Made by a program: the position numbers and the translations under genes. From Candidatus Woesearchaeota archaeon (GTDB taxonomy: Archaea > Nanobdellota > Nanobdellia > SCGC-AAA011-G17 > JAPLZO01): 61,482 bases of DNA. The stretch is taken from contig JAZDLF010000037.1 in NCBI GenBank assembly GCA_043802295.1, positions 1 to 61,482 of the forward strand, read 5' to 3'. Of this stretch, positions 9,805 through 48,460 are shown in pieces; the stretch's first letter is position 1; the number at the start of each line of letters is the position of its first letter. Below the pieces are notes generated by a model. That model ran no database searches. It had not been told where the DNA came from and was given only the letters and a program-made list of their open reading frames with translations.

Positions 9805-11223
9805 CTACATTCCAATTATAGCTTTAAAACCAGCCCAATATCTATTTATATCTTCAAAAGATCTAATATTAGTAATCTGTTTTGCTAAATATCTTGGTCT
9901 TAAATAATATTTTTTATAGGCATTATCAATAAACTTTTTATATTCTTCTTTATCTATTCCATCCGGAACATACATTATAATAGAGTGATCTAATTGACTA
10001 CAACTTTTACTAAAATCAAATTTATATCCTTTATCAATTAAAATTTTATAAAGTTCAGTTCCAGGATAAGGTGTAAATTTATTAAAATGTGCTAAGTCCA
10101 TATTCATTTTAATTGCAAAATCTAAAGTTTTTTGCATGCTTTCTAAAGTATCACCAGGAGTACCAATAATAAAATCAGCTCTAACACTTAAACCAACTTC
10201 ATGAGCCCATTTTACTGCTTGTTCATTTTGTGCAACAGTAGTTCCTTTTTTTAATAATCGTAAAATTTTATCATCACCAGATTCTAAACCATATAGAACC
10301 TGCCAACATCCAGCATCTTTCATTCTTTGTAACATTTCTTTAGTTACATGATTTGTTCTTGTTAAACAGCACCAACCAATTTTGATGCCACGTTCTTTCA
10401 TTAAATCAAATATTTCATATAATCTTTTTTTGTCTAATGTAAATGTATCATCAAAGAATTTAAGTTCTTTAGCACCATATTTATTTATTAATTCTTCAAT
10501 TTCATCAACAACATTTTTCGCACTCCTAAATCTATAACTAGTTCCAAAAATAGCTCTATCACAAAATGTACACTGATAAGGGCAACCTCTTGAAGTCATC
10601 AAAACACCTAATGGCAATTTCCTATAAGAAGCAGGTGTTGGATGATAATCTTTTAATGGAGGTAATAAATGTCTTGCAGGAAATGGTATACTGTCTAAGT
10701 CTTTAATAAATTCTCTCGGTTTTGTAAAAACAATTTTTTCTTTTTCTTTATACACAATTCCATTAACTTTTTTTAAACTAGAACTCTTTTCAAAAACCTT
10801 AATCAATTCCAAATAAGTTACTTCACCTTCACCAATAACACCAATATCAAAACAATCATCTTGAATAGCTTCTTTTGGTAAAGCAGTAACATGAGACCCA
10901 CCAATTATAACTTTAATATTTTTATCAATATCCTTAATATCTTTAGCAACTTTTATTACACTTTCGAATGTGGGTGTAGTTGTAGTTATTCCAACAATAT
11001 CAGGTTTTTCATTCCTAATATATTCTTTAATCTGAGAATGAGTCATAAAATTTCCTTCAGCAATCTTAACATAATAACCTTCTTTTTCTAAAACAGCAGC
11101 AATATAAGCAATACCCAATGGTTGTATTATATTCATAACATCTTTCATACTCTTAGTTTCACCAACTATATCTTCCATACTAAATGGAGGATTTACCAAG
11201 ATTGTTTTAATTTTTTTGTCCAT
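9805..11223 (-). CDS. B12-binding-domain radical SAM enzyme (class B)
   Basis: N-terminal Rossmann-like cobalamin-binding region (DIVGITTTTP...VIIGGSHVTALP), radical SAM cluster motif SRGCPYQCTFC, and GLESGDDKIL block. Confidence 0.8.
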   Translation of the reverse strand: MDKKIKTILVNPPFSMEDIVGETKSMKDVMNIIQPLGIAYIAAVLEKEGYYVKIAEGNFMTHSQIKEYIRNEKPDIVGITTTTPTFESVIKVAKDIKDIDKNIKVIIGGSHVTALPKEAIQDDCFDIGVIGEGEVTYLELIKVFEKSSSLKKVNGIVYKEKEKIVFTKPREFIKDLDSIPFPARHLLPPLKDYHPTPASYRKLPLGVLMTSRGCPYQCTFCDRAIFGTSYRFRSAKNVVDEIEELINKYGAKELKFFDDTFTLDKKRLYEIFDLMKERGIKIGWCCLTRTNHVTKEMLQRMKDAGCWQVLYGLESGDDKILRLLKKGTTVAQNEQAVKWAHEVGLSVRADFIIGTPGDTLESMQKTLDFAIKMNMDLAHFNKFTPYPGTELYKILIDKGYKFDFSKSCSQLDHSIIMYVPDGIDKEEYKKFIDNAYKKYYLRPRYLAKQITNIRSFEDINRYWAGFKAIIGM

Positions 11224-11224
11224 T

Positions 11225-12625
11225 TTAATAATAATCAGTTCTCAAATCTTCTTTTTTAATGCTTAAAAAATTTATTAAGCTTTTTAATCCATTAATCATA
11301 TGATCTGGATGTGAAAATAACATCTTAGTCTTTTTTGCTATATATTTTGGTCTAAAATAGAACTCTTTATAAAATTTTTTTTCCCATTCAATAAAATTAT
11401 TATTCTTATTTTTAAATTCAGATGTATAAGGAAATAAACTAAAGTTAATATTGCACTTTAATTGATTAAATAAATTAGTTCCAGGGTAAGGTATTAATTG
11501 ACTAACAACAACATAATCAAAATTAATCTCTTTTGCTAATTCTAAACTTTTATTGAAATCATTTTCATCTTCATTTGGAGCACCAACAATAAAAAAACCC
11601 ATAGTCTCTATACCAACGTCTTGAACCATTTTAACTTGATCTTTTATTTTGTAAGAATCATAACCTTTCTTATATAAATCTAAAATTTTTTGAGAACCAC
11701 TTTCAATACCAATTTGTATTCTTATACAACCTGCTTTTTTCATAATTTCTAAAGTTTCTTTGTCTAAAGTATCAACTCTGCTTAAACAAATCCATTTAAT
11801 TTTTAAATTTTTATCAATTATTTTTTGACATATATCTTTTATTCTTTGTTTATTAACATTAAATGTATCGTCTATAATCTTAAAATATTTTATACCATAT
11901 TTATTTACACATTCTTCAATCTCTTTAACAACATTATCAACAGATCTATAAACAATCATTGATCCATATGTATGTACACAATAACTACATTGATATGGAC
12001 ATCCTCTTGAAGTTTGTATAATAGTAAATGGTTTTTTCATTAAGAACTCAGAATATAATTCACTTTTAATCAAATCTCTTGATGGAAATGGTAATCTGTC
12101 TAACTCTAAAACTCTGATTGCATCTTTATTTATAAATATTCTTTTACCTTTCCTATACGCAATTCCTCTAATATCTTTTACATTTATATTATCTTTAATA
12201 GCATCATATAAATTAGAAAAAACCAATTCAGGTTCTCCTTTTATTATGTAATCTATTTTAGAATTATTAAGAACCTCTTTAGGAAATATTGTTGGTAAAT
12301 AACCAAAAACTATAATATTTAAATTAGATAATTCATTTTTTATTTTTTCAATATTGTCAATATCCTCTTGAAATACTTCAAATCCAGTTATTGTAACTAA
12401 GATGTTAGCATTAAATTCTTTAATTTTATTTATAACATCTTCAATATTTAGTTTCTCAGCAATTGCATCTATTAAAATTATATCATCTTTCTTCCATTCT
12501 TTAACAATAGCAGAAACATACATTAATTCTAGTGGTGGATATAAAAAATTAGGAGCATTATATGAACACATATATCTCCTTACAACTTGGTTTTTATTTG
12601 GTAAATTTAATACAACCGTTTTCAT
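11225..12625 (-). CDS. B12-binding-like radical SAM enzyme (divergent N-terminal domain)
   Basis: SRGCPYQCSYC (CxxxCxxC), GIESGSQKIL, and an N-terminal Rossmann-like region (ILVTITGFE...IIVFGYLPTIFP). 1 nt from the next rSAM gene. Confidence 0.7.
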   Translation of the reverse strand: MKTVVLNLPNKNQVVRRYMCSYNAPNFLYPPLELMYVSAIVKEWKKDDIILIDAIAEKLNIEDVINKIKEFNANILVTITGFEVFQEDIDNIEKIKNELSNLNIIVFGYLPTIFPKEVLNNSKIDYIIKGEPELVFSNLYDAIKDNINVKDIRGIAYRKGKRIFINKDAIRVLELDRLPFPSRDLIKSELYSEFLMKKPFTIIQTSRGCPYQCSYCVHTYGSMIVYRSVDNVVKEIEECVNKYGIKYFKIIDDTFNVNKQRIKDICQKIIDKNLKIKWICLSRVDTLDKETLEIMKKAGCIRIQIGIESGSQKILDLYKKGYDSYKIKDQVKMVQDVGIETMGFFIVGAPNEDENDFNKSLELAKEINFDYVVVSQLIPYPGTNLFNQLKCNINFSLFPYTSEFKNKNNNFIEWEKKFYKEFYFRPKYIAKKTKMLFSHPDHMINGLKSLINFLSIKKEDLRTDYY

Positions 12626-12665
12626 TTTTAATTTTCATAGTAGAATATTTATTAACATTATGTAT

Positions 12666-13361
12666 TTATTTTCTTAATCTGTACCACACTCTAAAAGTAT
12701 TCAACAAAGTTTTAGGGCCATGCTTAAAAACATTAAATGACCCACCATACCAATGACTATATTTTACTGGTATCTCTTCCATTTTATAACCAGCTTTTTT
12801 TAATTTAGCAAATAATTCAACATGTATATCAAATTTATTACTTTCTAAATTTATATTATCTAGCGCTTTTTTCTTAAAAATGACAAAACCACTACCAATA
12901 TCTTCTATGTCTAATCCAAACAAAATTTTATTTATCATATTATAAATTCTACTAGGATAAACCCTAGAAAATGGTATATCTCTATTTTTTCTTTCATATC
13001 TTGATGCTATTACAACATCATTATGATTCATTTTACTTATAAAATTATTTAGTAAACTCAAATCAAAACACAAATAAGCATCAGCATCAAAATAGATAAT
13101 ATATTCTCCTATAGAATCTTTAAATAAATTTTTTAAAGTGTAACCCAAACCTTTATTTTCTTCATTAAAAAAAACTCTTACATTTTTTTTCTTAGACAAT
13201 TTATTTAAAATATCTTTACTATTATCTTTACTACCATCATCTCTAAACAAAATCTCATATTTATCTGTAATTTTTTTTAGTTCATTATCAATATTAGAAT
13301 ATGTTCCATTCAAAATTTTACCAGAGTTATAAACCGGAATAACAGCAGATATTTTCATCAT
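12666..13361 (-). CDS. GT2-family glycosyltransferase (GT-A fold)
   Basis: ISAVIPVYNSG start, DDGSKDNS, and the DxD-type block YFDADA. 231 aa, soluble. Confidence 0.75.
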   Translation of the reverse strand: MMKISAVIPVYNSGKILNGTYSNIDNELKKITDKYEILFRDDGSKDNSKDILNKLSKKKNVRVFFNEENKGLGYTLKNLFKDSIGEYIIYFDADAYLCFDLSLLNNFISKMNHNDVVIASRYERKNRDIPFSRVYPSRIYNMINKILFGLDIEDIGSGFVIFKKKALDNINLESNKFDIHVELFAKLKKAGYKMEEIPVKYSHWYGGSFNVFKHGPKTLLNTFRVWYRLRK

Positions 13362-13771
13362 AATACCTCATGCTTATAAGTATCAGGGTCTTCTTCAAAA
13401 GGTCTTGTAGCATATGAAAAAAATATTACAGGATTAAACCCTTTTATTGCATGAGCAATATTTTTACCAATTCTAATTCGATCACCGACAGACATAATAA
13501 TTCCCTCTAGTCTTTCTTTTGTATTTATATCTTCTAGATAAACTTTAGCTTTACCCTTTAATATTATAATATATTCTTCTTTATTTTTGTGATAATGATT
13601 ACCTCTAATTTTACCTTTTATAATACTACCACCATAAATTGTACCAAAATCAATATGACTACCATTATTTTTTAGTTCATCTCTAGTCAAGCATTGAATT
13701 AGAGTACCTTTTCTATCAACAAAGACCTTTTTTTTAATTTCAAGACTTAACCTATTAATTTTATAATCCAT
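13358..13771 (-). CDS. Cupin-fold protein, sugar ketoisomerase/epimerase-like (WxcM/FdtA-like)
   Basis: The GNHYHKNKEEYIIILKGKAKVYL block resembles the RGxHxHK...E motif of cupin sugar isomerases. The track start at 13795 is TTG; the first ATG is at 13771. 4-nt overlap with the downstream GT2. Confidence 0.5.
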   Translation of the reverse strand: MDYKINRLSLEIKKKVFVDRKGTLIQCLTRDELKNNGSHIDFGTIYGGSIIKGKIRGNHYHKNKEEYIIILKGKAKVYLEDINTKERLEGIIMSVGDRIRIGKNIAHAIKGFNPVIFFSYATRPFEEDPDTYKHEVL

Positions 13772-13874: not shown

Positions 13875-15266
13875 ATGAAATCTTTAAAAAATATATTAAT
13901 ACCATTATGTTTATTTACTTTATTTTTATTAATATTTAATATATTTTCAATTAGAATAATACTTACTGATACACCACAATATATTGGTGTTGCTAAAGAA
14001 TTTGCAGGAATAAGTTTATCAAAAGTACGTGCAACATCATCTTTTGTTTATGGTTTTTTTCTAGGACAATTTTTAAAAATAGCTCCTTTTTTATTAACAA
14101 TTAAAATTGTAAATATGTTATTCTTGGTTTTTGATGCAATATTAATTTATTTTATAACAAAAAGAAAAGAATCATTTTTACTATGGATATTCTCACCAAT
14201 TGTTTGGTATATGGCCCCATATATTAGTCCAATCTTACCAGTATCATTTTTATTTCTTTTAGCTTATTATACACTAAAAAAATATGAAGGAGAAAATAAG
14301 TTCATACATTTTATACTTTCATCATTATCTTTAGGGATAGCATGTAGTTTATGGTCAGCTTCAATATATTTAACAATATTTTTTTTAGTATCATTTTTCT
14401 ATGATAAAAAGTTAATACAATTAATTTTATATTTGATACCATTAGCAATTGGGTTTTCTATAAGACTTTTGATTGATTATTATTATTTTGGATTTCCATT
14501 TTTATCACTTATAACTGGAATAGGCAGTAACGTTATTTACTTATTAGGAAAAGCCAATATTGACGTTGCATATATACCTCCTAAAACACCATTTTACATT
14601 TTGTATCTAATAACTATAATTATAATATCACCTTTTTTATATAAATTATATAAATTAAATATCCAAGAAAATAAAAAAGAATTAATTTTTTTATTTTTGA
14701 CTTCTATTTTGCTACTTAATCCATACAATTTTCAATTAAGATATTTATTAGTAATATCCCCTTTTTTAATAATACCACTAAGTAAATTGATTAATAAAAA
14801 AGAATTAATAATAAGCATAATAATATCTTTAATAATTATATTTGGAGCGACACATAATTACTTTACAGATAAAAAAGATAAACTTATGGAGCAAGACCTT
14901 AGTAATATAGCTAAAGAATATCCAAATCAAATTTTTATATCAGGTACATCAAATAAATATATATATTCATTTACTTTCTCAACTTTATATTGGGGGGAAG
15001 GTATTAAAAAATTTATTGCATTTGATGAATATTATTTATATAAAACAAATCAATCTACATTCTCAGATTACAGATTTGAAGTAAAACCTAAAATAGATAT
15101 ATTAAAAAAATTGAAGTTAATAATATCATATGAAAAAACAGATGATATAAATTTTGATCAAATAAAATATTTAATAACCGAAAGAGATGATAAGAAACCA
15201 CCAGCACCTAAAGAGTTCAAGTTAATCAAAAAATATAATATCTTAGATCTTTATAAAAAAGAATAA
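13875..15266 (+). CDS. Polytopic membrane protein, candidate GT-C glycosyltransferase
   Basis: 463 aa with about 10 TM segments plus a C-terminal soluble domain. First loop has TDTPQYIGVAKEF (acidic-x-x-x-Tyr, as in PMT/ArnT-type first loops). Call is by architecture and context. Confidence 0.45.
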   Translation: MKSLKNILIPLCLFTLFLLIFNIFSIRIILTDTPQYIGVAKEFAGISLSKVRATSSFVYGFFLGQFLKIAPFLLTIKIVNMLFLVFDAILIYFITKRKESFLLWIFSPIVWYMAPYISPILPVSFLFLLAYYTLKKYEGENKFIHFILSSLSLGIACSLWSASIYLTIFFLVSFFYDKKLIQLILYLIPLAIGFSIRLLIDYYYFGFPFLSLITGIGSNVIYLLGKANIDVAYIPPKTPFYILYLITIIIISPFLYKLYKLNIQENKKELIFLFLTSILLLNPYNFQLRYLLVISPFLIIPLSKLINKKELIISIIISLIIIFGATHNYFTDKKDKLMEQDLSNIAKEYPNQIFISGTSNKYIYSFTFSTLYWGEGIKKFIAFDEYYLYKTNQSTFSDYRFEVKPKIDILKKLKLIISYEKTDDINFDQIKYLITERDDKKPPAPKEFKLIKKYNILDLYKKE

Positions 15267-15308
15267 TAATTCAAAAGATTTTTATATAGAACATTGGGCT
15301 ACTCAAAA

Positions 15309-16244
15309 ATGAAATTAAGCATTGTATTACCAATTTATAATGAAGAACTTAATATAAAACCTCTTTATAATAGCCTTAAATCTGTTTTAAATTCTATGAA
15401 GTGTAAATATGAAATAATATATGTAGATGATGGATCTACTGATAATAGTTTAAAAAATATTAAGGAATTAAGAAGAAAAGACAAAAATGTAAAAATAATA
15501 AAATTTAGAAGAAATTTTGGTCAAGCAACAGCATTAAATGTAGGTTTAAAACACGCAATAGGAGATTATATGATAATTCTAGATGCAGATTTACAAAATG
15601 ATCCTAAAGATATTCCAAGACTAATTGAAAAAATAAAAGAAGGTTATGACTTAGTTGTAGGATGGAGATATGATAGAAAAGATTCATTTTTTAAAAGATT
15701 ATTTTCATCATTTGCAGGATTATTAAAAAGATTAATTCTAAAAGAAAAGATACACGATTCAGGTTGTACATTGAAAGCTTTAACAAAAAATGCAGCAAAA
15801 GAACTAAATATATATCATGAAATGCATCGCTATATAGCTGCTTTATTAAGTTTAAAAGGATATAAAATTACAGAAATTAAAGTGAGACACTTACCAAGAG
15901 TTCATGGAAAAACAAAATATAATAGCAAAAGACTAATTAAAGGTTTTTTAGATTTATTAATAATAAAATTCTGGATGGATTATTCAACAAGACCAATACA
16001 TTTTTTTGGAGGATTAGGAATACTGTCTTCTTTAATTGGTTTTATTTTAGGCACTTATTTAATAATAGATAAATTTATTTTTAATCAGCCTATAGGAAAT
16101 AGACCTCTATTATTATTTTCAGCTTTATTGATAATACTAGGTTTTTTATTAATAATATTTGGATTTTTAGCAGATATAATGGTAAAAATTTATTATAATC
16201 AAAAAAATGAAGAACCATATAGCATAGAATATAAACAATTTTAA
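15309..16244 (+). CDS. Polyprenyl-phosphate glycosyltransferase (GtrB/ArnC/DPM-synthase-like GT2 with C-terminal TM pair)
   Basis: LSIVLPIYNEE, VDDGSTDNS, ILDADLQNDP, plus two C-terminal TM helices, the architecture of lipid-phosphate sugar synthases. The track start at 15294 is TTG; ATG is at 15309. Confidence 0.8.
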   Translation: MKLSIVLPIYNEELNIKPLYNSLKSVLNSMKCKYEIIYVDDGSTDNSLKNIKELRRKDKNVKIIKFRRNFGQATALNVGLKHAIGDYMIILDADLQNDPKDIPRLIEKIKEGYDLVVGWRYDRKDSFFKRLFSSFAGLLKRLILKEKIHDSGCTLKALTKNAAKELNIYHEMHRYIAALLSLKGYKITEIKVRHLPRVHGKTKYNSKRLIKGFLDLLIIKFWMDYSTRPIHFFGGLGILSSLIGFILGTYLIIDKFIFNQPIGNRPLLLFSALLIILGFLLIIFGFLADIMVKIYYNQKNEEPYSIEYKQF

Positions 16245-20529: not shown

Positions 20530-20531
20530 AA

Positions 20532-31082: not shown

Positions 31083-31139
31083 AAATATTAAAAACCTTAA
31101 TAAATAATGTTTTTAAACTTAATGAATTATAATACAATC

Positions 31140-38148: not shown

Positions 38149-38202
38149 AAAATTTATAAATTGACCACTTATAAATTTAATGAATATAAATTCAACACTA
38201 AA

Positions 38203-42241: not shown

Positions 42242-42248
42242 TTTAAGA

Positions 42249-43697
42249 TTAAACAGTTACTTTTTTCATTCTATGTTTGAAAATATATTTAAGCAAATAA
42301 CCCCAAGAAGCATTGACATGATGTCTATTTGTAAAATAACCATCACTTAATCTCCAAAGTATTCTATATGCAACATTATCAGGTGTGTTAATTATAACAT
42401 TTTTAATAAACTCTCTCATCAATGGAAAGTTAATATATATTTGAGACCATCTAGAAAGTAATATTATTTTCTTACCATCTTTATCTCTTCTAAAACAATC
42501 ATAAAAATTCATGGTTGTATCACCAATCATACTTGAATCTTGAATCAATGTTTTGTCATACTGACCAATTTTAACACCATATTCAGTTATACTAAGTCTT
42601 GGAAATGGTTTAAAAATATTTACAGCAACAACAGAGTTTTTAGAAGATATTTTAGCAGCAAAATCCAAAGTTTCAAAAGCATTTTCTAAAGTCTCTCCAG
42701 GTAATCCTAACATAATAGACATTGAATATTTAAGATTATACTTCTTAAAAAGATCAGTTGCTTTAATATACTGCTCATTAGTTAATTTTTTATTAAGAGT
42801 AGTCATTCTAAATTTTTCATTACCTGTTTCTAAGCCTAATCTAATTATAAAACATTTTTTTGTATCTGCCAACAATTTACAATATTCATCATCAACCTCA
42901 TTAACAGTAGAATTAATAGTAAAAGGAAGATCAACTTTTTCTTTATATTTATTTAAAAATTCTCTTAACCATTTTTTATCATAACCTAAAGTACTATCAT
43001 TAAAAAATATATTTTTTATTTTATATTTTTCTTTTATCATAACACATTCTTTTATAACATTATCAACATCTCTTAAAGCACAATATTTTTTGTCTACATG
43101 AGCATACATTTCACGATATTTATGATTAAAACAATAAGAGCAGCTATAAGGACAGCCTCTTCCAACCATTACTAAACCAAATTCGATATCTCTAAAATAA
43201 GAAGAATAATCTCTATAAATCTCTCTATCTTCAAATAATCTTTCATTTACATCCTTAAAAGGTCTAATATCATTTTTAATTATTTTTCCATCTTTTTTAA
43301 CCCATAAATTAAGTATTTTTGAGTAATCTTGTTTTTTGTCTATTGCATCAGCTAATTCTACAATAACATCATCACCTTCTCCTCTACAAATAATATCAAT
43401 ATATGGGTTTTGAATTATTTCTGGAAAAAAAGATGCATCATGTCCACCAACAACAATCAGAGCTTTTATTTCATTTTGCCTTATTAATTTAGCAGTATCC
43501 ATCATATATTTTCTGTTTGCAGTTATAACAGAAAAAGCAATAATATCAGGATCAAATTCTTTTATTTCTCTTATTACTTTTTCATCCTCACCAATAGACA
43601 AACCAACTTTATGACCAGCATTTTTTAAAGCAGCAGAAAGTGTTCCAACTGCTTCAAAAGGGAACCATAAATTTTGAACAAATATAACTTTAGTCAT
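42249..43697 (-). CDS. B12-binding-domain radical SAM enzyme (class B), paralog of 33693-35225
   Basis: DIIAFSVITAN...IVVGGHDASFFP, GRGCPYSCSYC and NLWVKKDGKIIKNDIRP. Confidence 0.8.
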   Translation of the reverse strand: MTKVIFVQNLWFPFEAVGTLSAALKNAGHKVGLSIGEDEKVIREIKEFDPDIIAFSVITANRKYMMDTAKLIRQNEIKALIVVGGHDASFFPEIIQNPYIDIICRGEGDDVIVELADAIDKKQDYSKILNLWVKKDGKIIKNDIRPFKDVNERLFEDREIYRDYSSYFRDIEFGLVMVGRGCPYSCSYCFNHKYREMYAHVDKKYCALRDVDNVIKECVMIKEKYKIKNIFFNDSTLGYDKKWLREFLNKYKEKVDLPFTINSTVNEVDDEYCKLLADTKKCFIIRLGLETGNEKFRMTTLNKKLTNEQYIKATDLFKKYNLKYSMSIMLGLPGETLENAFETLDFAAKISSKNSVVAVNIFKPFPRLSITEYGVKIGQYDKTLIQDSSMIGDTTMNFYDCFRRDKDGKKIILLSRWSQIYINFPLMREFIKNVIINTPDNVAYRILWRLSDGYFTNRHHVNASWGYLLKYIFKHRMKKVTV

Positions 43698-43794: not shown

Positions 43795-44625
43795 TTATTT
43801 TTTAAAATATTTTTTCCATAAAGGGAGCAACCTCTTTTCTTCTTCATTTATATCTAAAGGTATTACATTATTCTTAATTATAAACTCTATTCTTTCGTAA
43901 TCATATAAATCATCTGGCTTTCCCCACCCAACAAATAAATCAACATCAAAAATAATAGATTTTTTACCAATTTTTTTTAAAAATTTTGGAATTGAATCTA
44001 CATAAAATTCATTATTAGTTCTATAATTTTCTTTAATCATCAAATTTGATGCATCAATAAAATATTTCGCCTTTTTAAAATAAAAAGTACCTACAACAGC
44101 ATGATCATTATAAGAATTATTAGAAACAGGGACCTTTATTGATATATCTTTTATAGTTTCATTATCATCCTCAAGTATATACCACCCCCATGCATTTGGA
44201 TTTCTTCTAAGAGTTTCTCTTTTAGTAAATGTTAAGACTATACAATCAACATCTTTTTTTTCTCTTAATTCATCAAATTTATTTTTATTATAAAGAAAAC
44301 CAATATCACAAGATGCTATAATAAGATCATCATCTAAATCAAGATATTTTTCAGCAAGCATACAAGTACATGCCTGCCCTTCAGTTGTTTTATCTATCGC
44401 TATTATTATTGCATTGGGTATTTCTCTTTTAATAATCTTATCAACACCATAATCGATATGCTCTTGTCTCATAACAAAAATCCACTTATTTGCTTTTGGT
44501 AAATCCTTTATAACATTTAATATCATTGGTTTACCAGAAACAGATATTAATGACTTTAAAAGTTTATAACCAACTTGTGAAAACCTTGTCCCAAGTCCAG
44601 CCATTGGTATTAATATTGTTGTCAT
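43795..44625 (-). CDS. Sugar-phosphate nucleotidyltransferase-family protein
   Basis: ILIPMAGLGTRF (GxGTR signature). Paralogous to both halves of the upstream 524-aa protein. Confidence 0.7.
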   Translation of the reverse strand: MTTILIPMAGLGTRFSQVGYKLLKSLISVSGKPMILNVIKDLPKANKWIFVMRQEHIDYGVDKIIKREIPNAIIIAIDKTTEGQACTCMLAEKYLDLDDDLIIASCDIGFLYNKNKFDELREKKDVDCIVLTFTKRETLRRNPNAWGWYILEDDNETIKDISIKVPVSNNSYNDHAVVGTFYFKKAKYFIDASNLMIKENYRTNNEFYVDSIPKFLKKIGKKSIIFDVDLFVGWGKPDDLYDYERIEFIIKNNVIPLDINEEEKRLLPLWKKYFKK

Positions 44626-44642
44626 ATTGATTAATACAAAAA

Positions 44643-46211
44643 TTATTGAAGCATTTTGGAATATGGATGGTAGCTTAACTTATCAAAATAATCTTGCCAA
44701 TACATCATCTCTTTATAATTTATTATATTTCTAATTGGAACAAATCTATCTACCTCAAATATAGCTACCTTTCTTTTCTTTATAATATTATTAATACAAC
44801 TTAAATAATATATTTTTCCTGTTTTATTATTTTTAATTTCCTCTTCAATGCTATCAAATAAATATTTTGCTTTTTTAAATATGGTAGTGCCAGTAAGTGC
44901 ATGATCTAAGTAAGGATTATTTGATAATGTTCTCTTTTCTATGATCTGTTCAACCTCAATATTATTTTTTAATTTTGCATATGCAAAACCATCTGGATTT
45001 CTTAATACACATTCATGATGGGTAAAAGAAAATAAAATTATATCTATATCTTCTTTCTCCATTAAATTCATCATTTTCTTTTCATTATAATTTAAGATAT
45101 ATGTAGATCCACAAATACATACTGGTGATTCGGGGTCTATTTTATCTTTTAATTCATATATAGTTGAAGCATTACCTCTCTTTATATCATCAATATAAAC
45201 AACTTCTGAAGAATAATCTTTACATATAGGCAAATTATCAAAATATTCTTTTTCTTTATTCAATCCTATAAAAACATTTTTTATACCTCTTGGATTTGAT
45301 CTAAAAGAATAATCTATAAGTGTTTTATTCATTATTGGTATCATAAAATTAGGCACATCATATCCTATATCCTTAAAATCTTTTTCACCACCAGCTAAAG
45401 GAAAAATATTTGTTACATTTAAGTTTACATTATCAAAAGTTATGAAATTTGGTGCATATTGAAGGAAAAATTCAGACCAAAATTTATAAAGTGAATAATC
45501 TCTTGGAGTACCTAAACAAATAAATTTCTTAACTTCAAAATTTAATATTTTTAAAGAATCTTGAATCATCAATTTAAATGGTAAACTCATATAGAATTCT
45601 CCATTAATTGCATTTGCTGGATTATCAATTAATTTTTTAACATATTCTTTAAATAATTTACCATTAGAAAAATAGTAGGTACCTGTAGAGCCATAATCAT
45701 CCATTTTATTTTTTGAAAAGCTTTCTTTTTCTTTTATATCCTTAACAAAGCCTTCATCATTAACTTTCATATATGCATAAAGAGTATCCCCCAAAGATGA
45801 AGGATGAAAACCTTTAAAACTAACAATTGCACCCGCAGGATTTTTTTCTTTTAATATTTCACAAAATTTATTATAATCCCACTCCTGAATAAAATCACAA
45901 TAATTTACAATTATATCTTCATCATCAGATATATCATCAAATGCTGCAAGGCAAGTATATGCAGGACCATGTAGCATATCTTCACCCACACTTATAATCT
46001 TAGATGAAGGAGAAATTCTTTTTAATACTTTTGATATATTAGTTTTATTTAAGTGATCCTGATTACATAAAAATATAAATTCACTTTTTCTAGGAAAATA
46101 ATTTACTATATGTTCCATCATTGGTTTTCCATCTACTTGTATTAATGGTTTAGCTGATAAAAAATCACCAAACCTTTTTCCTTTTCCAGCCATAGGAATT
46201 ATTATTTTCAT
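44643..46211 (-). CDS. Tandem double nucleotidyltransferase-like protein
   Basis: The N-terminal module has IIIPMAGKGKRF. The second module has IFPLAGGEKDF. Both modules share later blocks with the 276-aa neighbour (DHALTGTTIFKKAKYLF vs DHAVVGTFYFKKAKYFI). The track start at 46217 is TTG; ATG is at 46211. Confidence 0.7.
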   Translation of the reverse strand: MKIIIPMAGKGKRFGDFLSAKPLIQVDGKPMMEHIVNYFPRKSEFIFLCNQDHLNKTNISKVLKRISPSSKIISVGEDMLHGPAYTCLAAFDDISDDEDIIVNYCDFIQEWDYNKFCEILKEKNPAGAIVSFKGFHPSSLGDTLYAYMKVNDEGFVKDIKEKESFSKNKMDDYGSTGTYYFSNGKLFKEYVKKLIDNPANAINGEFYMSLPFKLMIQDSLKILNFEVKKFICLGTPRDYSLYKFWSEFFLQYAPNFITFDNVNLNVTNIFPLAGGEKDFKDIGYDVPNFMIPIMNKTLIDYSFRSNPRGIKNVFIGLNKEKEYFDNLPICKDYSSEVVYIDDIKRGNASTIYELKDKIDPESPVCICGSTYILNYNEKKMMNLMEKEDIDIILFSFTHHECVLRNPDGFAYAKLKNNIEVEQIIEKRTLSNNPYLDHALTGTTIFKKAKYLFDSIEEEIKNNKTGKIYYLSCINNIIKKRKVAIFEVDRFVPIRNIINYKEMMYWQDYFDKLSYHPYSKMLQ

Positions 46212-46230
46212 ATTCAAATATTATCAATTA

Positions 46231-46941
46231 TTAGTTTAATCTACCTATTCTAATCCCCCATATATCTTTTATGAATGATTTAATATTATCCATCTTACCC
46301 ATTATAGAATAAGTCCATTTAGATAATCCATATATTCTTTTAGTAAACATAACATCAAAAGGAATTATTTTATAATCATTTTTAATTGCTTTATACTGAA
46401 CATATAAATCATAAGAAAAACCTTTTGGGGGGCTTTTGAATGTTTTTATTAATTCTTTATCAAATATCTTAGGCTGACCATTAATATCATCAAAATATTT
46501 TAATAAAATTATACTTGATAAAATTTGTAGACCATACGTTAAAATTAAAGATTTCCAATCTCTCATTTTACGATGTCCCTTTACCAACATATTACCATTA
46601 GATTTTTTGTATATATCATATCCTATAAAAATATCTTCTGGAGAACATTGCAAATCTCCATGAGACCATCCAACAATTTTACTATCACAATTTTGTAAAC
46701 CTATATTTATACCATTTCCATATCCAATATTATCTTTAATTCTAATAAGTTTTATAAAATCATATTCTTTTCTAATTTTTTGTATATATTTCCAAGTATT
46801 ATCTTTAGAACCATTGTCTACTATAACTAATTGAAATTTTATTTTTTTCTTTGCTTTTTCATATTTTTCAATAAGTAAAGGTAATGATTTTAATTCATTA
46901 AAACAAGGTATTGTTATAGATAATTCATATTCTTCAATCAT
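46231..46941 (-). CDS. GT2-family glycosyltransferase
   Basis: LSITIPCFNE and VDNGSKDNT blocks. The likely start is M24 (ATG 46941), which gives an 8-nt ATGATTGA overlap with the upstream rSAM stop. The track start at 47010 lies inside that gene. Confidence 0.75.
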   Translation of the reverse strand: MIEEYELSITIPCFNELKSLPLLIEKYEKAKKKIKFQLVIVDNGSKDNTWKYIQKIRKEYDFIKLIRIKDNIGYGNGINIGLQNCDSKIVGWSHGDLQCSPEDIFIGYDIYKKSNGNMLVKGHRKMRDWKSLILTYGLQILSSIILLKYFDDINGQPKIFDKELIKTFKSPPKGFSYDLYVQYKAIKNDYKIIPFDVMFTKRIYGLSKWTYSIMGKMDNIKSFIKDIWGIRIGRLN

Positions 46942-48460
46942 AGTTTTTAACCTGTAGGATATTTTTATTATTTTTCTTATCAAAAAAATCACTTTCAGGA
47001 TTTGTTGCATCTAAACCCGAACCTGATTTTGATATTGAAATGAATGTTTTTAATACATTAAATATAACAAAAGGATGGTTTATCATAAAGAAGAATATAT
47101 TTTTTATTCCATCCCAATTTTTTATATATGAAATGATATAATAAGATCTAGAGAGTTTACTAGAATTTTTAAAACTGTCTAGAATTAAATGCTTAGCCTT
47201 TACTATTTCTTCTTTAGACATATCAGAAATATCTATATAAAATGTATCATCTTTAAGATGATGCATTGAACTCCAGTCAATTTTTTCAGGTAATTTTTTT
47301 TCATTTTGTAATTGATTAAAAAGATAAGTACCTGGATAAGGAGTAGTTATAGAAACATATATTGAAAAAGGTTTAATTTTTTTTACAAGTTCAATAGTCT
47401 TATTAACATCATCCATATTTTCTGTTGGGTTACCTACCATCAAAAATGCATGTGTAAAAATTCCTACTTTTCTACAATCATTAAATTGTTTTATAACATC
47501 TTCTATTCTAAGGCTTTTATTGATAGCATTTAATATTTTCTGTGAACCACTTTCTACTCCAAAAGCTATATTTACACAACCAGCTTTTTTCATTAATTTT
47601 AGTAATTTTTTATCTAAACAAGCTCTTGCCTGACATCTCCAAATAATTCTTAGTTTCCTATTAATAAATTCTTTACATAGATTTTCTATATAATTTGGGT
47701 TTACCATATCATCACAAAAGAAAAATATATCGGGATTATATTTCTTTTTTAACTGCTCAATTTCATCAACTACATTTTTAGGTGATCTATATCTAATTTT
47801 ATTACCAAACATTTTCTTTAAATATGGTTGACAAAAAATGCAATTAAAAGGACATCCTCTAGATGTGATAATGTTTAATTCTTTAATTGGTTTGGATTTT
47901 ATATAAGTTTGAATAGGGAAAAGATCATAATTTGGGAAAGGTAATTCATCAAGGTTTTCAATAAATTCAGCTGCTCCTGTAAAATGTACAACTTTATTAT
48001 CTTTATAATACACTCCAGGTATATTCTTAACTGATTCATTTTTTAAAATTGTGTTACATAAATTATAAAATGTTTTTTCACCTTCACCAAATATTAAATA
48101 GTCTATATCCTTATTATTAATCAATTGTTGTGGCATATTAGTTGCATGGACACCTCCAACAATAATTATATTATTTTTATTTATTTCTTTTATCTTTTTG
48201 ATAACTTTTTCAGCTATATTTAATATAGGTGTAGTTATACTAACTCCATAAATTGCTCTTTCTTTACTTAATTCAAGATTGGAATTAAATGTATAATCAT
48301 AAATCCTAATATTAAGTCCTTGTTTTATTAGATATGAAGCAATATAACCTAAACCCAATGGAGGTAATACAGCTGACCCACTCTTATAATCGTTTGGCCA
48401 AACAAGATTAATTGTATTTGATAATTTGTCTTTCATTTTATGCCTATAAATTTTTTGCAT
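46934..48460 (-). CDS. B12-binding-domain radical SAM enzyme (class B)
   Basis: IYGVSITTP...IIVGGVHATNMP, SRGCPFNCIFC and GVESGSQKIL. Confidence 0.8.
   Translation of the reverse strand: MQKIYRHKMKDKLSNTINLVWPNDYKSGSAVLPPLGLGYIASYLIKQGLNIRIYDYTFNSNLELSKERAIYGVSITTPILNIAEKVIKKIKEINKNNIIIVGGVHATNMPQQLINNKDIDYLIFGEGEKTFYNLCNTILKNESVKNIPGVYYKDNKVVHFTGAAEFIENLDELPFPNYDLFPIQTYIKSKPIKELNIITSRGCPFNCIFCQPYLKKMFGNKIRYRSPKNVVDEIEQLKKKYNPDIFFFCDDMVNPNYIENLCKEFINRKLRIIWRCQARACLDKKLLKLMKKAGCVNIAFGVESGSQKILNAINKSLRIEDVIKQFNDCRKVGIFTHAFLMVGNPTENMDDVNKTIELVKKIKPFSIYVSITTPYPGTYLFNQLQNEKKLPEKIDWSSMHHLKDDTFYIDISDMSKEEIVKAKHLILDSFKNSSKLSRSYYIISYIKNWDGIKNIFFFMINHPFVIFNVLKTFISISKSGSGLDATNPESDFFDKKNNKNILQVKNYD

What the first reader, a model, noticed from the sequence alone, without database searches (positions are those of the whole stretch)
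9805..48460. Five repeated 'cobalamin-type radical SAM + glycosyl/lipid transferase' cassettes inside an archaeal AglB glycan locus
**Seen:** seven ORFs carry a CxxxCxxC radical SAM motif.
- Four have a canonical B12-binding-type N-terminal domain: IIGGSHVTALP, IVGGVHATNMP, VYGGIHATISP and VVGGHDASFFP.
- Two have a divergent Rossmann-like N-terminal domain.
- One is SPASM-type.

Each of the six B12-type genes lies next to a transferase gene, either translationally coupled or separated by no more than about 100 nt:
- cupin-GT2-rSAM-rSAM (13771 down to 9805)
- GT-C-rSAM-SDR (29589 down to 25953, 4-nt overlaps)
- GT4-rSAM (36364 down to 33693, 4-nt overlap)
- TIM barrel-rSAM-GT2 (49369 down to 46231, 8-nt overlap)
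- nucleotidyltransferase-rSAM-GT-C (44625 down to 40673)

**Established:** class B radical SAM enzymes methylate or rearrange unactivated carbon or phosphorus centres (GenK, Fom3 and TsrM types). In archaea, radical SAM proteins such as GrsA/GrsB remodel tetraether lipids.

**Inference:** the repeating cassette suggests that each module adds a radically tailored sugar (probably C-methylated), or modifies the polyprenyl carrier. I know of no characterised archaeal surface-glycan pathway built this way. It would also make the envelope cobalamin-dependent, in what looks like a reduced genome.
Basis: partly seen in the sequence, partly recalled or inferred. Interest (0 to 1): 0.8.

Follow-up and report, generated by a model that had tools for sequence, protein, structure and literature searches.

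The report
Radical SAM sugar-tailoring genes in archaeal glycan island
A tiny DPANN-type archaeon carries a cell-surface glycosylation gene island packed with seven radical SAM enzymes, each tied to sugar-transfer genes, which points to unusual, uncharacterised sugar chemistry that it shares with other ultra-small microbes.

Summary
Seven ORFs carry CxxxCxxC. Six are two-domain "class B-type" radical SAM (rSAM) proteins and one is SPASM-type. All sit beside transferase genes in an AglB island of a Woesearchaeota-like archaeon (about 24% GC).

The interpretation needs revising.

- **The cassettes are not repeats.** The six rSAMs are 23-38% identical to each other. R1, R3 and R4 were each searched, and each has orthologues at 50-79% identity in other DPANN archaea and in Omnitrophota, Desulfobacterota or Patescibacteria.
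- **Partner genes are conserved per family.**
  - R1 sits next to a polytopic membrane protein in 10 of 12 loci. These are GT-C-like in eight loci and unclassified in the other two, usually with a small ArnC/AglJ-like GT2 nearby.
  - R3 is followed by an overlapping SDR gene in 18 of 21 orthologous loci.
  - R4 sits next to a GT4.
- **Cobalamin dependence is not uniform.** R3 models as AprD4, a cobalamin-independent sugar 1,2-diol dehydratase that works with a reductase (TM 0.83). R2 and R3 lack the GG motif. Only R1, R4, R6 and R7 look cobalamin-competent.

**Best reading:** these are sugar-tailoring enzymes, probably acting on polyprenyl-phosphate-linked sugars before GT-C or AglB transfer. 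R3+SDR most likely deoxygenates. The chemistry of the others (C-methylation or HpnJ-like ring contraction) is unresolved. No paper found describes such a pathway.

The parts
9805..11223 (-). R1: two-domain rSAM with a B12-binding-type N-terminal domain (IIGGSHVT) and CPYQCTFC
   Evidence: PF02310 87.6 bits and PF04055 108.6 bits. Best NCBIfam match is HpnJ at 235 bits against a cut-off of 578. AF2 pLDDT 92. Foldseek matches QCMT, AprD4, TsrM, OxsB, CysS and TokK. Orthologues at 55-63% identity in bacteria and archaea.
11225..12625 (-). R2: two-domain rSAM with a divergent N-terminal domain (GG replaced by FG) and CPYQCSYC
   Evidence: PF02310 is marginal at 36.3 bits. 30% identical to R1. The R2-R1 pair is syntenic in the Woesearchaeota MAG L006 at 89-90% identity.
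12666..13361 (-). Small GT2 (231 aa), polyprenyl-phosphate glycosyltransferase-like
   Evidence: PF00535. Best NCBIfam hits are PgfS, PgaC/IcaA (second), ArnC, AglJ, Dol-P-hexose transferase and PpgS, all below their cut-offs.
13358..13771 (-). Cupin / FdtA-WxcM-like small protein, a possible sugar isomerase or epimerase
   Evidence: PF14667, PF05523 and PF07883 hits. 4-nt overlap with the GT2.
8302..9804 (+). 7-TM membrane protein (500 aa), GT-C-like, convergent with R1
   Evidence: No Pfam hit. hhalign against a PMT_2 profile gives 93% probability. Orthologues lie next to R1 orthologues in L005, L006 and L014.
13875..15266 (+). 8-TM membrane protein (463 aa), GT-C-like, with a TDTPQY motif after TM1
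   Evidence: hhalign against a PMT_2 profile gives 97% probability. An orthologue is present in L005.
15294..16244 (+). GT2 with C-terminal TM helices, ArnC/PgfS-like polyprenyl-phosphate glycosyltransferase
   Evidence: ArnC model 178 bits over the full length and PgfS 166 bits, both below their cut-offs. PF00535.
17905..20529 (+). AglB (STT3-type oligosaccharyltransferase)
   Evidence: PF02516 and PF21436. 41% identical to the STT3 of the Nanoarchaeota locus L005.
20526..21518 (+). Polyprenyl-phosphate HexNAc-1-P transferase (AglH/GPT type)
   Evidence: PF00953, E = 1.7e-31.
21521..24707 (+). GT2, NodB-type deacetylase and PMT_2 GT-C: a triad that resembles ArnC/ArnD/ArnT
   Evidence: PF00535, PF01522 and PF13231. 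The genes overlap one another by 16 and 4 nt.
24697..25956 (+). GT2 (AglJ/Dol-P-hexose transferase-like) fused to a class I methyltransferase
   Evidence: PF00535 plus PF08241. AglJ model 118 bits.
25953..26819 (-). SDR (extended, NAD-dependent epimerase/reductase family), translationally coupled partner of R3
   Evidence: PF01370. 4-nt overlap with R3. An SDR lies immediately downstream of R3 orthologues in 18 of 21 loci at 50% identity or more, and in L026-L028.
26816..28108 (-). R3: AprD4-like rSAM with a degenerate N-terminal Rossmann domain (GP instead of GG) and CIYTCNYC
   Evidence: No PF02310 hit. phmmer against PDB gives AprD4 at 1e-26, with the next hit at 9e-7. AF2 pLDDT 95.5. Foldseek gives AprD4 at TM 0.83/0.79 and E 1e-26, with the next hit at 5e-17.
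28105..29589 (-). PMT_2-type GT-C with a WWDEAEY motif, first gene of the GT-C-R3-SDR operon
   Evidence: PF13231 63 bits. 4-nt overlap with R3.
33693..35225 (-). R4: two-domain rSAM (VYGGIHAT, CPNSCTYC), in a subgroup with R6
   Evidence: PF02310 46 bits and PF04055 40 bits. Orthologues at 55-68% identity are abundant in Nano-, Woese- and Pacearchaeota and in Patescibacteria.
35222..36364 (-). GT4 (GT-B fold) glycosyltransferase, overlaps R4 by 4 nt
   Evidence: PF00534 and PF13439. A GT4 lies immediately upstream of R4 orthologues in L029, L031 and L032.
38161..39171 (+). R5: SPASM/twitch-type rSAM (CDLKCKWC). The real start is probably Met at about 38203. An FkbM methyltransferase follows at 39174-40031.
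   Evidence: PF04055 plus PF13186. FkbM is PF05050. Similar SPASM rSAMs occur in L009, L023, L026 and L031.
40673..42241 (-). GT-C (weak PMT_2 match), 7 nt downstream of R6
   Evidence: PF13231 27.7 bits against a cut-off of 26.1. 9 predicted TM helices.
42249..43697 (-). R6: two-domain rSAM (VVGGHDAS, CPYSCSYC)
   Evidence: PF02310 62.7 bits and PF04055 78 bits. The family is sparse: the best representative is 56% identical, then 49% or less.
43795..46217 (-). Two sugar nucleotidyltransferase genes: a 276-aa single unit and a 524-aa tandem duplicate
   Evidence: PF00483 on the 524-aa protein. The 276-aa protein is 31% identical to both halves.
46231..46941 (-). Small GT2, polyprenyl-phosphate glycosyltransferase-like, overlaps the R7 stop by 8 nt
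   Evidence: PF00535. PgfS and ArnC are among the best NCBIfam hits (PgaC/IcaA scores about the same), all below their cut-offs.
46934..48460 (-). R7: two-domain rSAM (IVGGVHAT, CPFNCIFC)
   Evidence: PF02310 62 bits and PF04055 86 bits. HpnJ model 188 bits and BchE 185 bits, both below their cut-offs.
48464..52179 (-). Xylose-isomerase-like TIM barrel, Zn-ADH, and a ribulose-phosphate 3-epimerase/Zn-ADH fusion: the sugar or polyol precursor branch of the same operon
   Evidence: PF01261, PF08240/PF00107 and PF00834.
52318..54567 (-). Wzx/MurJ-type flippase and a pair of small ArnE/ArnF-like EamA proteins
   Evidence: PF01943 and PF03023. EamA. The two small proteins are 46% identical to each other.

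Best explanation
The region is the main cell-surface glycosylation island of a Woesearchaeota-like DPANN archaeon.

**Contents of the island**
- AglB, a GPT-type initiating transferase, a Wzx-type flippase and ArnE/F-like flippases
- nucleotide-sugar enzymes
- cytoplasmic GT2, GT4 and GT9 glycosyltransferases
- about five small ArnC/AglJ-like GT2s that probably charge polyprenyl phosphate with single sugars
- five GT-C-fold membrane transferases in addition to AglB

**Role of the radical SAM proteins**
The six two-domain rSAMs are sugar-tailoring enzymes from six anciently separated lineages. R1, R3 and R4 were each searched and each belongs to a widespread family. Each of those three keeps its own partner gene:
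- R1 with a polytopic membrane transferase plus a small GT2
- R3 with an SDR
- R4 with a GT4

**Proposed mechanism (inferred)**
1. [quoted passage not shown]
2. The rSAM abstracts a hydrogen atom from the sugar and remodels it.
3. The product is flipped across the membrane.
4. A GT-C enzyme or AglB transfers it to the surface acceptor.

This mirrors AglD/AglR/AglS, ArnC/ArnD/ArnT and HpnI/HpnK/HpnJ.

**Individual enzymes**
- R3+SDR most likely works like AprD4/AprD3. The rSAM dehydrates a vicinal diol to a keto sugar, and the SDR reduces it to a deoxy sugar. No cobalamin is needed.
- R1, R4, R6 and R7 probably bind cobalamin. Their reaction (C-methylation or HpnJ-like rearrangement) cannot be decided from sequence.

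**Shown:** gene content, domain architecture, folds and conserved gene partnerships.
**Inferred:** the substrates, the membrane-face topology and the chemistry.
For: **Island content.**

**Divergence and orthology.**
- The paralogues are 23-38% identical to each other.
- R1 orthologues reach 55-63% identity in Desulfobacterota, Omnitrophota, Chloroflexota, Altiarchaeota and Nanoarchaeota.
- R3 orthologues reach 50-79% identity in DPANN and Omnitrophica.
- R4 orthologues reach 55-68% identity in DPANN and Patescibacteria.

**Conserved partners.**
- In 10 of 12 loci, an R1 orthologue has a 7-12-TM protein within 0-900 bp. These are MEMB500, GT87/MptA-like or PMT_2-like, plus an unclassified pair in two near-identical Desulfobacterota contigs. 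Small GT2 genes are usually nearby.
- R3 is followed by an SDR, usually with a 4-nt overlap, in 18 of 21 loci at 50% identity or more and in L026-L028.
- A GT4 lies upstream of R4 in L029, L031 and L032.
- A Nanoarchaeota contig (L005) and L031 reproduce the island type with STT3.

**R3 resembles AprD4.** phmmer E = 1e-26. Foldseek TM 0.83. AprD4 is a sugar 1,2-diol dehydratase with a reductase partner, AprD3 (PMC5461906), and it does not bind cobalamin (PMC12931638).

**GT-C assignment of the unannotated membrane proteins.** hhalign probabilities of 93% and 97% against a PMT_2 profile.

**Small GT2s.** They resemble ArnC, AglJ, PgfS and PpgS.

**Archaeal precedent for a GT2 + flippase + GT-C module.** AglD/AglR/AglS (PMC3871713).

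**Precedent for rSAM action on a lipid-linked sugar.** HpnI/HpnK/HpnJ and Cds (PMC13459092).
Against: - No substrate or product is known for any of these families. All NCBIfam matches are far below the equivalog cut-offs.
- The idea that the substrate is lipid-linked rests only on gene neighbourhood. R4 is coupled to a GT4, which uses a nucleotide-sugar donor, so its substrate could be a nucleotide sugar or the growing oligosaccharide.
- In the GT2 matches, PgaC/IcaA (a processive synthase) scores about as high as ArnC and AglJ for 12666 and 46231.
- R3 scores higher on the HpnJ and BchE models (162 and 150 bits) than on the AprD4 model (116 bits against a cut-off of 500). It is therefore not an AprD4 orthologue.
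- I could not verify which protein family AprD3 belongs to.
- The membrane proteins next to the Desulfobacterota R1 orthologue are not detectably GT-C (hhalign probability 4%).
- Partner conservation was not tested for R2, R6 or R7.
Confidence: 0.6

Rival explanations
1. One reading: all six are cobalamin-dependent class B methylases, each cassette adds a C-methylated sugar, and the envelope therefore depends on cobalamin.
For: - Most characterised PF02310+PF04055 enzymes are methylases (PMC12931638, PMC9204698).
- R1, R4, R6 and R7 pass the PF02310 gathering score and keep the GG motif.
- The R1 model superposes over its full length on the cobalamin-binding enzymes QCMT, TsrM, OxsB, TokK and CysS.
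- GenK and GenD1 show that sugar C-methylation by this class exists (PMC9204698).
Against: - R3 has no PF02310 match and is AprD4-like, meaning cobalamin-independent and a dehydratase.
- R2 has lost the GG motif.
- The best family match for R1, R2, R3 and R7 is HpnJ, followed by BchE. Neither is a methylase.
- The R1 model fits AprD4 (TM 0.71-0.75) as well as it fits the cobalamin enzymes.
- Five conventional SAM methyltransferase genes or domains already lie in the island.
Confidence: 0.2
2. HpnJ/Cds-type chemistry: some of the rSAMs (R1, R2, R7) contract a lipid-linked hexose or hexosamine ring to a five-membered cyclitol (carbasugar). This would give acid- and glycosidase-resistant surface groups.
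For: - HpnJ is the top NCBIfam match for R1 (235 bits), R2 (212 bits) and R7 (188 bits).
- HpnJ works after a GT (HpnI) and a deacetylase (HpnK) on a lipid-linked GlcNAc, and Cds does the same kind of reaction on archaeal lipids (PMC13459092).
- GT2 + NodB-type deacetylase + R1-like rSAM combinations occur in L014, L018 and L009, and a GT2-deacetylase-GT-C triad is present in the window.
Against: - The scores are less than half the HpnJ cut-off of 578 bits.
- No hopanoid or tetraether-lipid genes are present.
- A deacetylase is not a regular neighbour. It appears in only 2 of 32 long R3-centred loci, and it is not adjacent to R1 in the window.
- The chemistry of HpnJ itself has never been shown in vitro (PMC13459092).
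Confidence: 0.12
3. The rSAMs modify lipids rather than sugars. Targets would be the dolichol or polyprenol carrier chain, or scavenged membrane lipids, in the manner of GrsA/B, Tes, Gms and Gmm.
For: - Several archaeal lipid-modifying enzymes are rSAMs, some with B12-binding domains (PMC11214058, PMC13459092).
- The ladderane-lipid model is the best, though weak, NCBIfam hit for R4 (74 bits).
Against: - R1, R3 and R4 orthologues are common in bacteria that lack archaeal lipids.
- The conserved partners are sugar enzymes (SDR, GT4, GT2, GT-C, aminotransferases), not isoprenoid enzymes.
- Tes/GDGT-MAS is only a marginal PDB hit at 6e-4.
- No lipid-synthesis genes lie in the window.
Confidence: 0.06

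Closest known systems
AprD4/AprD3 (apramycin C3'-deoxygenation; PDB 6FD2)
   Same: - R3 has the same two-domain fold (TM 0.83/0.79) and AprD4 is its closest solved sequence relative (E = 1e-26, shared FRDPxFS segment).
- R3 lacks a recognisable cobalamin-binding signature.
- R3 has a dedicated oxidoreductase gene as a conserved, translationally coupled partner.
- AprD4 also acts on a sugar.
   Different: - R3 reaches only 116 bits on the AprD4 family model, whose cut-off is 500.
- The context is a surface-glycan island with GT2 and GT-C genes, not an aminoglycoside cluster.
- The substrate is unknown.
- I did not verify which protein family AprD3 belongs to.
HpnI/HpnK/HpnJ (hopanoid cyclitol ether) and archaeal calditol synthase Cds
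   Same: - A glycosyltransferase puts a sugar on a lipid, an optional deacetylase acts, and then an rSAM remodels the lipid-bound sugar.
- HpnJ is the best-scoring named family for R1, R2, R3 and R7 (PMC13459092).
   Different: - The scores are 28-41% of the HpnJ cut-off.
- No hopanoid or GDGT genes are present.
- Here the products appear to be passed on by GT-C transferases rather than remaining as lipid head groups.
Cobalamin-dependent (class B) radical SAM enzymes with solved structures: QCMT/MgmA, TsrM, OxsB, TokK, CysS
   Same: - An N-terminal Rossmann domain plus an rSAM barrel.
- The R1 model aligns over its full length with E of 1e-24 to 1e-16.
- PF02310 is above threshold in R1, R2, R4, R6 and R7.
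   Different: - Sequence identity is only 16-23%.
- The substrates of the solved enzymes (peptides, nucleotides, carbapenems) are unrelated.
- Cobalamin binding has not been shown here, and the fold is shared with the cobalamin-free AprD4.
Lipid-linked monosaccharide pathways: Haloferax AglD/AglR/AglS and bacterial ArnC/ArnD/ArnE-F/ArnT
   Same: - The same parts list is present: a small GT2 that charges polyprenyl phosphate, tailoring on the lipid-linked sugar (a NodB-type deacetylase, as in ArnD), small EamA-type and Wzx-type flippases, and a GT-C transferase (PMC3871713).
   Different: - None of the known pathways includes a radical SAM step.
- The GT2 matches are below the equivalog cut-offs.
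- Neither the donor sugars nor the acceptors are known here.

Membership tests
Radical SAM superfamily | CxxxCxxC cluster motif within a PF04055 core | tested here: met
   All seven ORFs have the motif and PF04055 at 40-109 bits against a cut-off of 29.5.
Cobalamin-dependent (class B) radical SAM | N-terminal Rossmann-type cobalamin-binding domain (PF02310) preceding the rSAM core | tested here: met
   Met for R1, R4, R6 and R7 (46-88 bits) and marginally for R2 (36.3 bits against 32.1). Not met for R3, which has no hit. The GG motif is kept in R1, R4, R6 and R7 and lost in R2 and R3.
Cobalamin-dependent (class B) radical SAM | Overall fold like the solved class I B12-rSAM enzymes | tested here: inconclusive
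   The R1 model matches QCMT, TsrM, OxsB, CysS and TokK (TM 0.63-0.74). It matches the cobalamin-free AprD4 equally well (TM 0.71-0.75). The fold therefore cannot discriminate.
Cobalamin-dependent (class B) radical SAM | Actual binding and use of cobalamin | not testable with these tools
   This needs purified protein, UV-vis or EPR spectroscopy, or an activity assay with and without hydroxocobalamin. AprD4 and ArsL homologues show that the architecture can be cobalamin-free (PMC12931638).
AprD4 family radical SAM diol dehydratase (NF033070) | Score at or above the curated equivalog cut-off of 500 bits | tested here: not met
   R3 scores 116.5 bits. R1, R2, R6 and R7 score 39-103 bits and R4 has no reported hit.
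AprD4 family radical SAM diol dehydratase (NF033070) | AprD4-type fold across both domains, with AprD4 as the closest solved relative | tested here: met
   For R3, Foldseek gives 6FD2 at TM 0.83/0.79 and E 1e-26, against 5e-17 for the next hit. phmmer gives 1e-26 against 9e-7 for the next hit.
AprD4 family radical SAM diol dehydratase (NF033070) | Dedicated NAD(P)H reductase partner | tested here: met
   An SDR gene overlaps the R3 stop by 4 nt. This is conserved in 18 of 21 orthologous loci and in L026-L028. That the SDR reduces a keto sugar is an inference.
HpnJ (TIGR03471) | Equivalog score of at least 577.6 bits and a hopanoid (hpn/shc) gene context | tested here: not met
   Scores are R1 235, R2 212, R7 188, R3 162, R6 97 and R4 71 bits. 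No hpn or shc genes lie in the window.
BchE (TIGR02026) | Equivalog score of at least 481 bits and a bacteriochlorophyll gene context | tested here: not met
   The best score is R1 at 219 bits. No tetrapyrrole genes lie in the window.
Archaeal lipid rSAMs (GrsA/GrsB, Tes, Gms/Gmm, Cds) | Orthology to the characterised proteins | not tested
   No reference sequences or models for GrsA/B, Gms or Cds were available in the tools. Tes/GDGT-MAS (7TOL) is only a marginal PDB hit at E = 6e-4.
AglB-centred archaeal N-glycosylation locus | STT3/AglB oligosaccharyltransferase, an initiating polyprenyl-phosphate transferase, glycosyltransferases and a flippase, all clustered | tested here: met
   PF02516 and PF21436 at 17905-20529. 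PF00953 at 20526-21518. Multiple GT2, GT4 and GT9 genes. Wzx-like flippase at 52318-53817.
GT-C fold glycosyltransferases (PMT_2-like) | Polytopic membrane protein with an acidic motif in the first outer loop and a match to PF13231/PF02366 | tested here: met
   22986, 28105 and 40673 pass PF13231. For 13875 and 8302 the evidence is profile-profile only, with hhalign probabilities of 97% and 93%. No structure model was made for them.

The most novel reading that the evidence does not exclude
Ultra-small, host-associated prokaryotes from both domains (DPANN archaea, Patescibacteria, Omnitrophota) may share an uncharacterised toolkit. In it, radical SAM enzymes would remodel polyprenyl-phosphate-linked monosaccharides by deoxygenation, C-methylation or ring contraction to carbasugars. 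GT-C transferases would then place these sugars on the cell surface. This would be a new branch of glycan biosynthesis: radical chemistry on lipid-linked sugars, producing non-standard and possibly glycosidase-resistant surface sugars. R3 orthologues at 66% and R4 orthologues at 59% identity across the two domains suggest that the modules are exchanged between domains.
Probability: 0.3. Interest if true: 0.75.

Novelty: new variant of a known kind. Interest (0 to 1): 0.55.

Why it matters
**Unknown surface chemistry.** The surface glycans of DPANN archaea and other nano-sized symbionts are unknown, yet they probably mediate attachment to hosts. If radical SAM enzymes tailor lipid-linked sugars in these islands, three things follow:
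- radical carbohydrate chemistry, so far known mainly from antibiotic pathways and from two lipid head-group cases, would extend into general cell-envelope biosynthesis
- concrete mass signatures could be looked for: -16 Da for R3+SDR, +14 Da for methylases, and isomeric carbasugars for HpnJ-like enzymes
- several large, conserved and currently unnamed rSAM families would have a testable role

**Cobalamin dependence.** The finding also tempers the idea that the envelope depends on cobalamin. At most four of the six two-domain enzymes (seven rSAMs in all) look cobalamin-competent.

Tried and rejected
1. **Recent duplication of one cassette: rejected.** The paralogues are 23-38% identical. DNA similarity is limited to 60-139-nt motif stretches. 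The 78% R4/R6 stretch is a motif conserved across both families, not gene conversion.
2. **Predicting methylase versus non-methylase from the residue under the corrin: not decisive.**
   - I mapped TokK Trp76, OxsB Asn186 and TsrM Arg69 (PMC12931638) onto R1 through HMMER alignments.
   - They fall in the invariant TTTTP loop (T82/P84). That loop is polar, like those of the non-methylating enzymes.
   - However, loop lengths differ between the enzymes and PDB numbering is uncertain.
3. **Fold comparison as a test of cobalamin binding: inconclusive.** AprD4 shares the fold.
4. **GT-C assignment of the two membrane proteins next to the Desulfobacterota R1 orthologue: failed.** hhalign probability is 4%.
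5. **Searches that returned nothing.**
   - Viral-contig scans for R6 and R7 gave no relatives.
   - Exact look-up of R7 found nothing in the collection.
   - The AprD4/AprD3 primary paper (PMC4943880) is not held, so AprD3's protein family is unverified.
   - Four literature searches linking rSAM with aglB, Woesearchaeota, Omnitrophota or polysaccharide glycosyltransferases found nothing relevant.
6. **Cobalamin synthesis or uptake genes.** None appeared among the roughly 57 window ORFs scanned with Pfam.

Full report
**1. What is in the sequence**

The window has about 24% G+C throughout. Between 9.8 and 48.5 kb, seven ORFs carry CxxxCxxC, and all seven match the radical SAM (rSAM) core PF04055.

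| Name | Coordinates | Strand | PF02310 (B12-binding) | Notes |
|---|---|---|---|---|
| R1 | 9805-11223 | - | 87.6 bits | GG motif kept |
| R2 | 11225-12625 | - | 36.3 bits (cut-off 32.1) | FG instead of GG |
| R3 | 26816-28108 | - | no match | GP instead of GG |
| R4 | 33693-35225 | - | 46.0 bits | GG motif kept |
| R5 | 38161-39171 | + | not applicable | SPASM-type (PF13186) |
| R6 | 42249-43697 | - | 62.7 bits | GG motif kept |
| R7 | 46934-48460 | - | 62.2 bits | GG motif kept |

The substitutions in R2 and R3 are shown.
- Every stated overlap or gap is correct.

The one qualification is that the "repeat" is a repeated pattern of gene types. It is not repeated DNA.

**2. Organism and locus**

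The flanks encode an AMP phosphorylase-like protein, a form III RuBisCO and an eIF2B-like isomerase. The nearest genome match is a Candidatus Woesearchaeota MAG:
- R1 is 90% identical.
- R2 is 89% identical.
- The adjacent membrane protein is 81% identical.
- All three genes are in the same order.

The region is a large glycosylation island containing:
- AglB at 17905-20529
- a GPT-type initiating transferase
- a Wzx-like flippase
- two small ArnE/F-like EamA proteins
- GDP-mannose dehydratase and epimerases
- nucleotidyltransferases
- GT2, GT4 and GT9 glycosyltransferases
- five class I methyltransferase domains
- a NodB-type deacetylase
- three PMT_2 GT-C proteins

Two further polytopic proteins have no Pfam match (8302-9804 and 13875-15266). 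Both align to a PMT_2 profile, with hhalign probabilities of 93% and 97%.

The small GT2s were scanned against NCBIfam:
- 15294 matches ArnC best, over its full length, followed by PgfS.
- 24697 matches AglJ best, followed by Dol-P-hexose transferase and ArnC.
- 12666 and 46231 match PgfS best, and ArnC is also listed.
- All of these are polyprenyl-phosphate glycosyltransferases, and all scores are below the cut-offs.
- For 12666 and 46231, the processive synthase PgaC/IcaA scores about the same as ArnC.

**3. The six two-domain rSAMs are not copies of one another**

Pairwise identity among them is 23-38%. They fall into two subgroups, {R1, R2, R3, R7} and {R4, R6}. Three were searched in depth, and each has much closer relatives in other organisms.
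- **R1.** Orthologues at 55-63% identity, all about 472 aa, occur in Desulfobacterota, Omnitrophota, Chloroflexota, Altiarchaeota, Bathyarchaeia and Nanoarchaeota. Myxococcota orthologues are at 47%.
- **R3.** Orthologues at 50-79% identity occur in DPANN groups and in Omnitrophica.
- **R4.** Orthologues at 55-68% identity occur very widely in Nano-, Woese- and Pacearchaeota, and at 59% in a Patescibacteria contig.
- **R6.** This family is sparser. The best representative is 56% identical, and the rest are 49% or lower.

For comparison, AglB itself is only 41% identical between this window and a Nanoarchaeota contig. The rSAM modules are therefore either under strong constraint or exchanged between domains.

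**4.

*R1.* In 10 of 12 loci with close R1 orthologues, a 7-12-TM protein of 430-570 aa lies within 0-900 bp. These proteins belong to four unrelated families:
- the 8302-type family
- a GT87/MptA-like family
- a PMT_2-like family
- an unclassified pair found in two near-identical Desulfobacterota contigs

A small GT2 is usually nearby. The Desulfobacterota pair could not be shown to be GT-C.

*R3.* An SDR gene starts within a few nucleotides of the R3 stop, typically with a 4-nt overlap. This holds in two Omnitrophica loci, one Aenigmarchaeota locus, and 18 of 21 metagenomic loci whose R3 homologue is at least 50% identical. The pairing fades below about 45% identity. GT2 genes and polytopic membrane proteins each occur in 17 of 32 long loci.

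*R4.* A GT4 lies immediately upstream in two further DPANN contexts. In Patescibacteria a GT9+GT2 fusion lies downstream instead.

*Island type.* Loci L005 and L031 both carry STT3 and an R4-type rSAM.
- L031 also carries GPT, GtrA, PMT_2, a GT4 next to R4, and a SPASM rSAM.
- L005 carries a GT2, an 8302-like and a 13875-like membrane protein, and several R1-type rSAMs.

R2, R6 and R7 were not tested beyond the close relative L006.

**5. Structure and family placement**

*NCBIfam.* None of the six reaches any equivalog cut-off.
- HpnJ and then BchE score best for R1, R2, R3 and R7, at 162-235 bits against cut-offs of 578 and 481.
- BchE scores best for R6, at 105 bits.
- The ladderane-lipid model scores best for R4, at 74 bits.

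*R1 model.* AF2 pLDDT is 92. It superposes over its full length on QCMT/MgmA, AprD4, TsrM, OxsB, CysS and TokK, with E from 1e-24 to 1e-16. The class B architecture is therefore real. The fold does not prove cobalamin binding, because AprD4 shares it and binds no cobalamin (PMC12931638).

*R3 model.* AF2 pLDDT is 95.5. It singles out AprD4 (6FD2):
- Foldseek gives TM 0.83/0.79 and E = 1e-26, against 5e-17 and TM 0.66 for the next hit.
- AprD4 is also by far the closest solved sequence, at 1e-26 against 9e-7 for the next.

AprD4 is an rSAM 1,2-diol dehydratase. It converts a sugar diol to a keto sugar, and its NADPH-dependent partner AprD3 reduces that, giving net deoxygenation (PMC5461906). 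The strictly conserved R3-SDR couple fits this logic.

R3 is not an AprD4 orthologue, however. It scores 116 bits against a cut-off of 500, and its HpnJ and BchE scores are higher.

**6. Most likely mechanism**

*Shown:* the gene content, the folds and the conserved partnerships.

*Inferred:* the rSAMs tailor sugars destined for the cell surface. The proposed sequence is:
1. A small GT2 charges polyprenyl phosphate with a sugar.
2. A tailoring enzyme remodels the lipid-linked sugar. This enzyme could be an rSAM, the deacetylase, an SDR or the cupin.
3. A Wzx-type or ArnE/F-like flippase moves the product across the membrane.
4. A GT-C enzyme adds it to a protein-bound glycan or another acceptor.

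Three known pathways follow parts of this logic:
- Haloferax AglD/AglR/AglS (PMC3871713)
- bacterial ArnC/ArnD/ArnT (from general knowledge)
- HpnI/HpnK/HpnJ and Cds, which show an rSAM acting on a lipid-bound sugar (PMC13459092)

R4, which is coupled to a GT-B-fold GT4, may instead act on the growing lipid-linked oligosaccharide or on a nucleotide sugar.

The chemistry of each enzyme:
- R3+SDR most likely performs deoxygenation. I put this at about 0.45.
- For R1, R2, R4, R6 and R7, C-methylation remains possible, since it is the usual reaction of the class.
- An HpnJ-like rearrangement fits R1, R2 and R7 equally well.
- An attempt to read the residue under the corrin was not decisive.

**7. 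Cobalamin**

At most four enzymes (R1, R4, R6, R7) carry a convincing binding signature. R2 is doubtful and R3 is unlikely to bind it. No cobalamin synthesis or uptake gene was seen among the window ORFs scanned. The rest of the genome could not be examined. "The envelope depends on cobalamin" is therefore a hypothesis, not a finding.

**8. Novelty**

- The protein families already sit in the databases as unnamed "B12-binding domain-containing radical SAM proteins".
- Sugar-tailoring rSAMs are a known kind: AprD4, GenK, HpnJ and Cds.
- No paper in the held library links such enzymes with AglB islands, GT-C modules, DPANN or Omnitrophota surface glycans.
- I rate this a new variant of a known kind and moderately interesting.
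- Its main value is a set of sharply testable predictions, together with the cross-domain sharing of the modules among ultra-small microbes.

Noticed in passing
window 817-8204 (- strand): An AMP phosphorylase-like gene (817-2322), a form III RuBisCO (5457-6710) and an eIF2B-like ribose-1,5-bisphosphate isomerase (7392-8204) lie next to the glycan island. Together they form the archaeal AMP salvage set. A related Woesearchaeota contig (L014) has the eIF2B-like gene and neighbouring genes in the same order.
   Followed up: partly
window 21521-24707 (+ strand): A GT2, a NodB-type polysaccharide deacetylase and a PMT_2 GT-C have overlapping reading frames. This triad resembles ArnC/ArnD/ArnT and sits directly after aglB and the GPT gene.
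   Followed up: partly
window 53865-54567 (- strand): Two tandem small EamA-like membrane proteins of 119-120 aa are 46% identical to each other and overlap by 20 nt. They resemble the ArnE/ArnF flippase pair for lipid-linked monosaccharides.
   Followed up: partly
window 43795-52179 (- strand): One operon combines a ribulose-phosphate 3-epimerase fused to a Zn-ADH, a second Zn-ADH, a xylose-isomerase-like TIM barrel, a tandem-duplicated nucleotidyltransferase and a single-unit copy of it. This looks like a route to a nucleotide-activated pentitol or ketose (TarI/TarJ-like). It feeds the R7 and R6 modules.
   Followed up: no
window 40083-40676 (- strand): A 197-aa protein with no Pfam match overlaps the end of the GT-C gene by 4 nt. 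By eye, its N-terminal HR...E.D.R pattern resembles glycerophosphodiester phosphodiesterases. This was not tested.
   Followed up: no
window 56212-60131 (+ strand): Genes for a type I phosphodiesterase, a sulfatase-family protein and a PAPS-reductase-domain protein lie at the edge of the island. They may add or remove sulfate or phosphate on glycans.
   Followed up: no
window 31107-31541 and 32752-33477: A nucleoside 2-deoxyribosyltransferase-like gene and a QueC (7-cyano-7-deazaguanine synthase) gene sit inside the glycan island. The reason is unexplained.
   Followed up: no
window 17038-17901 (+ strand): A SpoIIM-family membrane protein ends 3 nt before aglB. A 62% identical orthologue lies in the related Woesearchaeota locus L014.
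   Followed up: no
L013 (Omnitrophota, 17 kb) and L026 (Omnitrophica, 13 kb): These bacterial loci are even denser in radical SAM genes. L013 has about nine two-domain paralogues plus a PMT_2-like GT-C. L026 has five rSAMs together with a GT2, aminotransferase, WbqC and SDR genes.
   Followed up: partly
L004 3580-4860 and L011 1317-2669: A contig labelled [Eubacterium] cellulosolvens and a Bathyarchaeia MAG contig carry nearly identical GT87/MptA-like proteins (phmmer E = 1e-245) next to their R1 orthologues. This suggests either mis-binning or very recent transfer.
   Followed up: no
window 34759-34897 and 43258-43396: R4 and R6 share a 139-nt stretch at 78% DNA identity, although the proteins are only 28% identical overall. 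The stretch encodes a motif, LW[VI]K..GKIIKN..RP, that is conserved across both families, so gene conversion is not needed to explain it.
   Followed up: yes
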